A DNA stretch of 63,818 bases, counting the filler, from Kipferlia bialata (Eukaryota): NCBI GenBank assembly GCA_003568945.1. It is 6 parts of 6 records of this genome, joined end to end, with 100 filler letters (N's around TTAATTAATTAA, not from the genome) between each part and the next. Parts side by side here need not be neighbours in the genome. Positions count along the whole stretch, not along the records: positions 1 to 11,578 come from BDIP01001223.1; 5 more parts are not named here. One strand, given 5' to 3'. This document shows positions 31 to 3,000 of this stretch, piece by piece. The notes beneath the pieces are model-generated. The model saw only the letters and a program-made list of their open reading frames with translations, was not told the origin of the DNA and did no database searches. Position 1 is the first letter of the stretch, and each line of letters starts with the position of its first letter. The translations under genes were made by a program, and so were the position numbers.

Positions 31-3000
31 TAGCTGCGTCCATTGTCTCCTCTGCGTCCACCACGGCTGGTGTCACCTCAGTGCCACTCACAGTGCGGTA
101 CAGGGGGGACTGGGGGTAGACATTGGAATATGTAAGTGCATATATATATACAAGTATGGTAAAATAGACACTGACAGTACGGTACAGGGGAGTAGGCTAG
201 ATTGCTGGTATTATATGATTCAGATATAAATGAGTATGGAAGCAACATACCTGTGACGACACCTCTCTAGCTATGCGCTCCCTGCCCCCATCCTCCCTAA
301 GGACCTCGAGGGACTCTAGGGCGGCCTGGAGGTTATAAGGATACGTGTAAAACAAATAGTATATCTATCCAAACATTATGGTATAGACATAAATACAAAA
401 AAATATGGATAGGACCTCAAGAGACTCAAGGGCGGCCTGGTATTAGAGGATGGAAAGGATAGTGAGAGACTTCATGAAAGATGATACACGAAAAGATACA
501 AGTATTCTGGTATGATATTGTACCTTGTAGAAGTCTGCCAGGTATCTGTCCCCCTTGGCTACCCTCTCATGCTATCTATTATATATATACACATACATAT
601 ACTCATATATATATACCTACATATGTATACATATGTATATATACCTTGTAGAAGTCTGCCAGGTATCTGTCCCCCTTGGCCACCCTCTCTGCCTTGGAGG
701 TGGTGTCGGGGATGGATGTAACCTAGGTTGAGTATACATAGATTATTAATATAATGAATATAACACATGTGACACAGAGCGAGAGTGGGAATGCGAAAAT
801 GATCATCGGCAAGCTCACGAGCCCAACACTATACCATTGTCAGCCAGGTCACCGATCCGTATATATATACATGGCACTATACCTTATCTGACAGGTCTGA
901 GAGCGCTGACAGCAGCACGTGCTGAGCACCTGTGCATAAGGATAGTGGACGGAGTATAGCCTATTTAAGGGAGTCGATAAAGAGTATTAAGAGAGCTACT
1001 ATTCAAATACAAACTCAATTCTATAGTATACATGTATGACGTGCTGAGCACCTGGCAAGTGAGGGAGTGCTATATATATATATATATATATACATGTATA
1101 TACAGCTGATCATATGGCAATGATGATGAGGGAGTGCTATATATATATACACACATGTATATATGCAGCTGATCATATGACAATGAGGAGGGGGAGGGGT
1201 GACATACCTGTAGTATTAGAGGTGGTAGAATAGCAGAGGACATAGAGAGACAACCAATGTAACACATACCGACTATTCTCTTGTATGCCTCCATCCTGAT
1301 GGCGTTGGGGACCCACTACACACACACACATACACACACACATATATATATATATACATGCACATACTTGAATATACGAATGAGATAACTAATACATACC
1401 GACTATTCTCTTGTATGCCTCCATCCTGATGGCGTTGGGGTCCCTCTCAGTCTCCCCCTCTCCCTCTCCCTCCCCATCTGCGTCTCCTGCATCCCCTCCA
1501 GCAGCAATGAGCATGTTCCTACAGGTGAGGATCATCAAAAATCACAGAATCTATAACCGTCAATAGGTGTTAGTATACCTAGAACAATCAATAGCGTTAT
1601 CAAGTCTAAATCAAGTGGAATGTTAAAGTACAAGAAGGTGCGGGAAATCCAAGTATATTTGTACCTGCGTACAAGTGCCTGACTGTCTGCCTCTAGCTGG
1701 GAGACCTGGGGGGTAAGGTACACATACAATATAATATATCTATAAAAATAAACCATAATATATATATGACAGACGATACTGATTGAACATGTCTGTCTGC
1801 CTCGAGCTGGGAGACCTGGGTGTTAGAGATTATGAGAACAGATACACCGTGCAGGGTATAGAAATACGAATCATTGGTAATGCTTGATATGCATACCTGA
1901 TACACCACCCTAGTATGGTCCACAATGATGCTGACCACAGAGGATGCAATGCCTATAATATACATTATATATATATATACCTGATAGACCACCCTAGTGT
2001 GATCCACAATGATGCTGACGACAGAGGATGCAGTGTCAAGGGGGGTGAGCTGCTTGGTGACAATGTCAGTGACCTGGTGTTTAGGATGTAGAGAGAGAGA
2101 GAAATAGAGCTGCTTGGTTACAAAAAGTACACTGCCAGTGACCTGGGGGTTAATGGGAGTGTTGTGTCCTAACAAGTATACGTATCAAATTCGTACCTCC
2201 CCCTCCACGAGTGCCAGTATACCGGACACTCCCTCCTCCCTGAGTCTATATATACATATATAAGTATACCACTCTCTCTCTATATATAATACATACCTCT
2301 CCCTCCACTAAGGATAGGATGCCTGACACCCCCTCCTCTCTCAGTGTATATATATAAATATATATATGTATATATATAAATATATATGTATAAAGCTAAG
2401 GGTATTGATACTAAATGGGTATACCTCTCCCTCCACGAGTGACAGGATGCCAGACACCCCCTCCTCCCTCAGTATGTATATACACATACATATATATATA
2501 TAGAGAGAGAGATATATATGTAGTTTAGGGTATTGACACTACATGGGTATACCTCGCCTTCAACCAGTGATAGAATGCCTGACACCCCCTCCTCCCTCAG
2601 TATGCGAGGGGGGTGCTTGGAGTCGGAACGGTAGTAGCTAGGGTAAGGGAGAGAGACAGAGACATGGGCAATTGGCTGGTAGATTGCATACTCGTTTCCA
2701 TACCCGATGTCTGTGACAAGTGTGTTGAGCGAGGCAGGGACAAGGGCAGCACGGGACATGCGCTCCTAAGAATAAGGGAGAGAGAGGGAGGGAGAGAGAG
2801 AGAGAGAGAGATGCTGGGACAATGGCAGCATTGATCATACGTTCCTAAATGTAAGAATGGCTATGTATATATACATCAGAAGCATAGTGTGACTATAATT
2901 CCAATACCTTCAGTATGGTCAGTGCCTCTATCACCATGTCCACTAGGGTGTCACGCTTCTCAATGACCTGAAGTTATAATGTGGGTATGTGAGTATATAG

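What the first reader, a model, noticed from the sequence alone, without database searches (positions are those of the whole stretch)
2194..2640. Four codon-recoded versions of LREEGVSGILSLVEGE, each with its own donor
The real exon (2553-2638) and the echo at 2425-2472 differ in 7 of 16 codons, all synonymous (TCA/TCT, ATT/ATC, CTA/CTG, CTG/CTC, GTT/GTG, GAA/GAG, GGC/GGA). Echoes at ~2297-2344 and ~2197-2244 use further synonymous codon sets, with only one replacement (S to A). Echo 5' breakpoints fall on microhomology with TA repeats (CGC-ATA-CTG becomes tatac-ATA-CTG).
Basis: seen in the sequence. Interest (0 to 1): 0.8.

Follow-up and report, generated by a model that had tools for sequence, protein, structure and literature searches.

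The report
Introns archive exon alleles in Kipferlia
In the free-living flagellate Kipferlia bialata about half of the introns examined carry spare, spliced-out copies of neighbouring exon ends that differ almost only at silent positions; they are likely pieces of very different working alleles captured by recombination, which would be a record of cryptic sex and extreme diversity readable from a single genome.

Summary
Confirmed, and not local. The window is Kipferlia bialata; the locus is a 479-nt intron of KIPB_005292 holding three copies of the last 16 codons of the upstream exon, each with a GT donor. Public DNA contigs show the real exon and two echoes at equal depth (379, 390, 400), each echo cut off by a TA run; an RNA contig uses only the real exon and skips all echoes. 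Echoes lie in 63 of 120 modelled introns. Over 120 echoes pS is 0.25 and pN 0.024; echo against echo the ratio is 0.09, where inert duplicates give 0.5 or more. Echo donors differ from the real ones yet score equally well. So the copies diverged while working as exons, though they are now spliced out. Best explanation (0.6): a rare duplication makes a junction, and unequal recombination between highly diverged haplotypes keeps replacing echoes with working alleles. A toy simulation reproduces the numbers with between-haplotype exchange but not sister-only exchange, and needs allelic silent diversity near 0.2-0.25. No second strain was found, so this is inferred. TA-microhomology at breakpoints is only weakly supported.

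The parts
2553..2637 (-). Real exon (85 nt) of KIPB_005292, YYRSDSKHPPRILREEGVSGILSLVEGE; donor GTATAC
   Evidence: open 36-exon model, identical to public protein, covered by RNA contig with 0 other letters
2074..2552 (-). 479-nt intron holding three donor-side echoes and one acceptor-side echo
   Evidence: RNA contig's loose end equals window 2042-2071, the next real exon
2425..2476 (-). Echo 1: 16 codons, 7 synonymous differences, plus 4 shared bases at the junction; donor GTATAC; next 30 intron bases 83% like the real intron start
   Evidence: own DNA contig, depth 390
2297..2344 (-). Echo 2: 7 codons differ, all synonymous; donor GTATGT
   Evidence: DNA contig of 926 nt, depth 400
2197..2244 (-). 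Echo 3: 11 codons differ, one replacement (S to A); donor GTACGA
2477..2520 (.). TA/GA microsatellite spacer before echo 1 (similar spacers at 2345-2392 and 2245-2292)
   Evidence: sequence; loose ends of DNA contigs
2107..2154 (-). Acceptor-side echo of the next exon with its own branch point/AG; carries an in-frame 9-nt insertion; skipped in the RNA contig
1981..2073 (-). Next real exon (93 nt)
30..11384 (-). Host gene KIPB_005292 (partial; 36 exons modelled, 901 aa without stop; no Pfam family); 42 echoes in its introns

Best explanation
The three echoes are single-copy intron DNA that the main mRNA skips, and they are likely pieces of diverged working alleles of the same exon, captured by unequal recombination between haplotypes. 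Step 1 (inferred): a rare short duplication across a splice site leaves an exon end plus donor in the intron behind a microsatellite junction. Step 2 (shown for one RNA contig and a 36-exon open frame): splicing uses the innermost acceptor and donor of each exon, so the copy is harmless. Step 3 (inferred): because the repeat-rich introns of different haplotypes hardly align, strand exchange happens in exon sequence, and the echo competes with the real exon as partner. A crossover between one haplotype's echo and another's real exon replaces the echo's 3' part, donor and following intron with a currently working allele and adds units; the reciprocal product deletes units and is filtered by selection. 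The junction stays, the body is renewed. Differences between copies then mirror differences between alleles (mostly silent, donors still good) plus brief decay. Step 4 (speculative): fornicates lack Rad51A and NHEJ and keep Dmc1 paralogues, which tolerate mismatched base triplets, so exchange between such alleles would be easier.
For: Intronic and single copy: (depth 379/390/400; RNA joins the real donor to the real acceptor). Silent bias: 120 echoes pS 0.251, pN 0.024; one echo per family 0.14 (95% 0.09-0.22), wrong frames 2.5-3.0, inert duplicates through the same detector 0.51-0.56; echo vs echo, 70 pairs, 137 silent: 37 replacement, ratio 0.088. Splice sites: GT/AG kept in 113 of 120; echo donors differ at 20-52% of +3..+6 yet score 1.79 vs 1.78 for matched real donors, random change -0.34 +/- 0.26. 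Shared junction: 52 of 69 within-family pairs start within 3 nt, 20% by chance; no rank-divergence trend. Replacements enriched near the junction (22:28 vs 37:112, P 0.013), as in the simulation. Simulation: between-haplotype exchange, theta 0.15, gave pS 0.23-0.27, pN 0.026-0.028; sister-only gave pS at most 0.10 and ratios 0.45-0.69 at theta 0.15 or more. Precedent: crossovers favour exons in hypervariable Schizophyllum (PMC4209137, abstract); repair gene losses in Fornicata (PMC8516963, section 8); Dmc1 (PMC6719624, abstract).
Against: No second strain or allele was found, so allelic diversity and sex are not measured. The model needs allelic silent diversity near 0.22-0.26, above the 0.20 of Schizophyllum (PMC4576712, abstract), and exchange thousands of times faster than mutation per array; at lower rates the ratio stayed 0.20-0.73. 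Intron starts behind echo donors are no more like the real intron start than unrelated ones (median 0.67 both; 6 of 71 at 0.85 or more), which needs allelic introns to turn over much faster than silent sites. Direct mosaicism is thin: four-gamete violation in 1 of 2 testable families. The junction gradient may be an alignment-edge effect. The bias is weaker on the acceptor side (0.24) and outside the focal gene (0.19). The farthest echo was more diverged than the nearest in 12 families, less in 6, equal in 3. The simulation is a toy: 2 seeds, N 600, at least two copies forced. Sex has not been observed in Metamonada (PMC8516963, passage).
Confidence: 0.6

Rival explanations
1. Same capture process, but the diverged templates were homologues inside one polyploid or hybrid lineage (past interspecies hybridisation, or long asexual divergence of homologues followed by loss of heterozygosity), not alleles of a hyperdiverse sexual population.
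For: Explains silent-only divergence and good donors equally without record within-species diversity; fits the near-saturated intron starts.
Against: No second full-length allele at 80% likeness in the one stretch laid (contigs drop variants). Families of up to 7 copies with distinct donors need many templates. 22 of 89 echoes have no silent difference and the rest spread up to 0.5, not one divergence class.
Confidence: 0.17
2. Echoes are under selection now because they reach protein by a minor route (rare or stage-specific alternative splicing, or homology-guided joining or ribosome bypass onto the echo).
For: Amino acids and splice sites are conserved in the echoes. Contigs drop rare isoforms. 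No snRNA candidates were found in K. bialata (PMC6679479, passage).
Against: Donor echoes have no acceptor and acceptor echoes no donor; they run into microsatellites. The RNA contig skips all echoes at two introns. The RNA run's share of words, 0.12, matches the 0.126 expected from real exons alone. Two echoes carry stops and 7 of 120 have dead splice sites. No such mechanism is known to me.
Confidence: 0.08
3. Ordinary sister-chromatid tandem duplications that decay neutrally; the silent bias arises only because the real exon is protected.
For: Simple, known kind of event. Some decay is present: real GC / echo AT 61 vs 39, two stops; echo acceptors score below matched real ones, 6.8 vs 9.1.
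Against: Predicts pN/pS of 0.5 or more (0.51-0.56) and about 1 between echoes; observed 0.10 and 0.09. A lower mutation rate in introns cannot rescue it: intron bases beside the echoes have diverged to background. Sister-only exchange did not reproduce the data.
Confidence: 0.04
4. Assembly artefact: diverged haplotypes concatenated through microsatellites.
For: Short-read draft; contigs of the DNA run break inside the TA runs (overlaps of 13-18 nt), so unit order rests on the assembly; that run may be the window's source.
Against: Each laid echo is a truncated exon piece joined to 26-30 bases of TA run inside one contig, which no working allele could be; depths are equal; no second full-length exon was laid.
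Confidence: 0.02

Closest known systems
Human F7 intron 7 37-bp VNTR (PMC1557585, abstract read)
   Same: First unit spans the exon-intron border; downstream pseudo-donors stay silent and the most upstream donor is used.
   Different: One locus of near-identical units. Here about half of the introns examined, both donor and acceptor forms, unrelated spacers, and coding-type constraint on the copies.
Intron gain by tandem duplication of proto-splice sites (PMC2891723, abstract read)
   Same: Short duplication of exon sequence absorbed into an intron.
   Different: Here an existing splice site is duplicated, no new intron position is made, and the copies do not diverge neutrally.
Hypervariable Schizophyllum commune: silent diversity 0.20, crossovers in exons (PMC4576712, PMC4209137, abstracts read)
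   Same: The population regime that the best explanation needs.
   Different: Measured there from many genomes and crosses, with no intronic echoes in the abstracts; only inferred here from one genome.
Gene-conversion donor archives (chicken Ig pseudogenes, trypanosome VSG; recalled, no call)
   Same: Silent partial copies next to an expressed gene that exchange sequence with it.
   Different: Those store amino-acid diversity for one gene family; these keep the protein constant and occur in unrelated housekeeping-type genes.
Mutually exclusive tandem exons (recalled)
   Same: Tandem copies with silent-biased divergence.
   Different: Those are whole exons with both splice sites and are in mRNA; echoes are half-exons with one site.

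Membership tests
Splice-junction-spanning tandem repeat (F7 VNTR type) | First unit spans the exon-intron border | tested here: met
Splice-junction-spanning tandem repeat (F7 VNTR type) | Downstream pseudo-donors are silent | tested here: met
   RNA contig uses the first donor; rare use cannot be seen in contigs
Splice-junction-spanning tandem repeat (F7 VNTR type) | Units near-identical head to tail, diverging without coding constraint | tested here: not met
   echo-echo pN/pS 0.088; intron parts at background identity
Mutually exclusive duplicated exons | Each copy has its own acceptor and donor | tested here: not met
   echoes have one site and abut microsatellites
Mutually exclusive duplicated exons | Alternative copies appear in mRNA | tested here: inconclusive
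   absent from the one RNA contig laid; rare isoforms not visible
Intron gain by tandem duplication (proto-splice site) | Intron made of a duplicated AG|GT exon segment, its 5' end mirroring the next exon | tested here: not met
   the intron begins with an ordinary donor and holds copies of the upstream exon end with further donors
Gene-conversion donor cassettes (recalled) | Donors store amino-acid variants | tested here: not met
   pN 0.024; 1 replacement among four focal copies
Gene-conversion donor cassettes (recalled) | Programmed transfer into the expressed copy | not testable with these tools
   needs clones or raw reads over time
Hypervariable species with exon-confined recombination | Silent diversity above 0.1 in a population sample | not testable with these tools
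   no other strain found
Hypervariable species with exon-confined recombination | Recombinant mosaics within exon sequence | tested here: inconclusive
   four-gamete violation in 1 of 2 testable families; conflicting groupings in the focal four

The most novel reading that the evidence does not exclude
Kipferlia bialata is a cryptically sexual species with silent diversity at or above the highest measured in a eukaryote, and a Dmc1-only, mismatch-tolerant recombination system that can pair haplotypes only in exons writes alleles from the population into tens of thousands of introns. One genome would then hold a population sample, and echo capture would be a main route of intron growth.
Probability: 0.3. 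Interest if true: 0.9.

Novelty: new variant of a known kind. Interest (0 to 1): 0.74.

Why it matters
Non-coding copies that show purifying selection on protein are a paradox under the usual pseudo-exon model. If they are captured alleles, one genome gives an estimate of population diversity and evidence for genetic exchange in a group where sex has not been observed (PMC8516963). The echoes also show a strict innermost-site rule in a reduced spliceosome, account for much intron length (median 274 vs 92 nt), and bear on whether this species' 124,912 introns reflect an ancestral state (PMC5874029). The draft genome is public, so the test can be run genome-wide now.

Tried and rejected
No whole genome is held, so nothing is genome-wide: all counts are from 133 exons in 13 gene pieces of this window; two minus-strand genes on the second scaffold, part of the fifth and some exons with uncertain ends were not modelled. 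Other strains: two metagenome scans found no relative; protein searches returned only K. bialata's own proteins. No holder is on record as RNA; X2 is RNA by guess, supported by its GT-AG joint. Host protein: no Pfam family; the atlas did not answer; function unknown and not needed here. Ladder model (echoes as frozen older versions): no rank trend and it cannot lower the ratio below 0.5. Insertion with long target-site duplication: gives identical then neutral copies, rejected on the same ratio. First simulation (N 200) did not reach the observed ratio in any setting (lowest 0.21); one search used higher exchange relative to mutation. Echoes wholly inside an exon: 17 of 106 seed matches were flagged unanchored; by eye nearly all are anchored echoes with mismatches or indels near the site, one is a repeat exon. 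Literature: searches listed no description of these echoes; the genome paper's main text has 0 hits for 'duplicat' and 'heterozyg'. Its supplements, and the gene tables of PMC8516963 for K. bialata itself, were not read; subscription papers are not searched.

Full report
Setting. The window is six scaffolds of an intron-rich eukaryote joined by N linkers. A cluster mate of a window-encoded adaptin is KIPB_005302 of Kipferlia bialata on a contig of 11,553 bases, and an exon of the focal gene matches KIPB_005292 on a contig of 11,578 bases, the length of the first scaffold. The genome paper reports 124,912 GU-AG introns in a short-read draft (PMC5874029, passages).

Observation. The four copies, their donors and the codon differences are as described. 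The real exon is 2553-2637. Taking for each exon the last acceptor and the first donor gives 36 exons and 901 residues without a stop, contained letter for letter in the public protein.

Real DNA, skipped in RNA. On 2521-2775, run X1 (DNA contigs, possibly the window's source) gave three contigs: the real exon (depth 379), echo 1 (390) and echo 2 (400). The echo contigs leave the exon at 2601-2604 into TA runs that equal the window's spacers. No second full-length allele was laid. The contigs overlap by only 13-18 nt, so unit order rests on the assembly. Run X2 (RNA by guess) gave one 3,378-nt contig with the real exon and no other letters, a GT-AG joint, and loose ends equal to the real flanking exons (2042-2071, 2910-2939). 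It skips three donor echoes and two acceptor echoes. Contigs drop rare forms.

Window-wide. Among 133 modelled exons an anchored search found 133 echoes in 87 families (47 donor-side, 40 acceptor-side); control 1 of 399. A stricter cut keeps 120 echoes in 81 families; 63 of 120 introns carry one, median length 274 vs 92 nt. Echoes are 12-66 nt.

The paradox. Strict set: pS 0.251, pN 0.024, dN/dS 0.08; loose set 0.14. Counting each variant once per family gives 155 silent: 63 replacement, against 38-41% silent for inert copies. One echo per family gives 0.14 (0.09-0.22); without the focal gene 0.19; donor side 0.06, acceptor side 0.24; wrong frames 2.5-3.0; simulated inert duplicates 0.51-0.56. 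Between echoes, neither of which should be translated, the ratio is 0.088. GT or AG survives in 113 of 120. Echo donors differ from the matched real donor at 20-52% of positions +3 to +6 but score as well (1.79 vs 1.78; random change -0.34). Echo acceptors score 6.8 against 9.1, random change -0.9. The intron bases behind echo donors are at background identity. Exon part and splice site therefore diverged under function, and introns do not mutate slowly.

Anatomy. Within a family 52 of 69 pairs start within 3 nt (20% by chance), and divergence does not follow order: one founding junction, later multiplied. Replacements gather near the junction (P 0.013, possibly an edge effect), with slight AT drift and two stops. 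In the focal four, codon 10 groups real with echo 2, codons 9 and 15 group echo 1 with echo 2, and the intron start groups real with echo 1. Repeat microhomology at junctions is enriched but absent in 53 of 81.

Mechanism. Only one copy per chromosome can be the working exon end at a time, so several copies that each diverged under selection must have done so on different chromosomes. Unequal exchange between an echo and another haplotype's real exon renews the echo from a working allele and keeps the old junction. In a toy forward simulation, between-haplotype exchange at theta 0.15 and about 4,000 exchanges per mutation gave pS 0.23-0.27 and pN 0.026-0.028, close to the data, with allelic silent diversity 0.22-0.26; sister-only exchange did not combine high pS with a low ratio; slower exchange gave 0.20 or more. 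This shows sufficiency, not proof. Crossovers favour exons in hypervariable Schizophyllum (PMC4209137, abstract), whose silent diversity is 0.20 (PMC4576712, abstract). All examined Fornicata lack Rad51A and keep two Dmc1 paralogues, metamonads lack NHEJ, and sex has not been observed (PMC8516963, section 8 and passages); Dmc1 stabilises mismatched triplets (PMC6719624, abstract). The link to this locus is speculation. Whether the templates were population alleles or homologues in a hybrid or polyploid is open; no other strain was found.

Known and new. The structure is that of the human F7 intron 7 repeat (PMC1557585, abstract), and earlier unchecked notes of this scan report such echoes in a sea urchin with a silent share (43 of 107) that fits inert decay. 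The Kipferlia echoes exceed that expectation by far. My searches listed no description of them; supplements and subscription papers were not seen. Verdict: real, window-wide, a new variant of a known structure with an unexpected evolutionary signature; interest 0.74.

Noticed in passing
window 11579-11678, 23252-23351, 34909-35008, 46562-46661, 58210-58309: Linkers of 44 N, 12 bases, 44 N: the window is six separate scaffolds, five of about 11.5 kb, often ending in poly-C/G runs.
   Followed up: yes
window 43984-44758: A 775-nt intron with six acceptor-side echoes (19-21 nt) and one donor echo, in a 17-exon plus-strand gene that looks Exo70-like (label recalled, no call).
   Followed up: partly
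window 2968-3793: Intron with at least six donor echoes (assembly gap inside) whose exon parts differ at 0-2 sites but whose donors differ; they share upstream bases absent from the real exon.
   Followed up: partly
window 2107-2142 and 2806-2844: Acceptor echoes that look like diverged orthologues: one has an in-frame 9-nt insertion, the other five silent and three replacement changes including L/I.
   Followed up: partly
window 59638-63550: A 21-exon gene has only 3 echoes against 42 in the 36-exon focal gene; echo load and silent divergence (0.04-0.35) vary strongly between genes.
   Followed up: no
whole window: Acceptors have the branch-like motif packed against the AG (consensus CTCCCCTTACCCCCAG); donors GT(A/G)(T/C)(G/A)(T/G).
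   Followed up: partly
window 16842-19135: p23-like gene (label recalled) whose Gly/Met-rich tail is built from repeated real exons as well as echoes, a possible route from echo to new exon.
   Followed up: no
window 46700-48970 and 51250-52350: Long nearly intronless minus-strand reading frames without microsatellites in an otherwise intron-dense genome; origin not examined.
   Followed up: no
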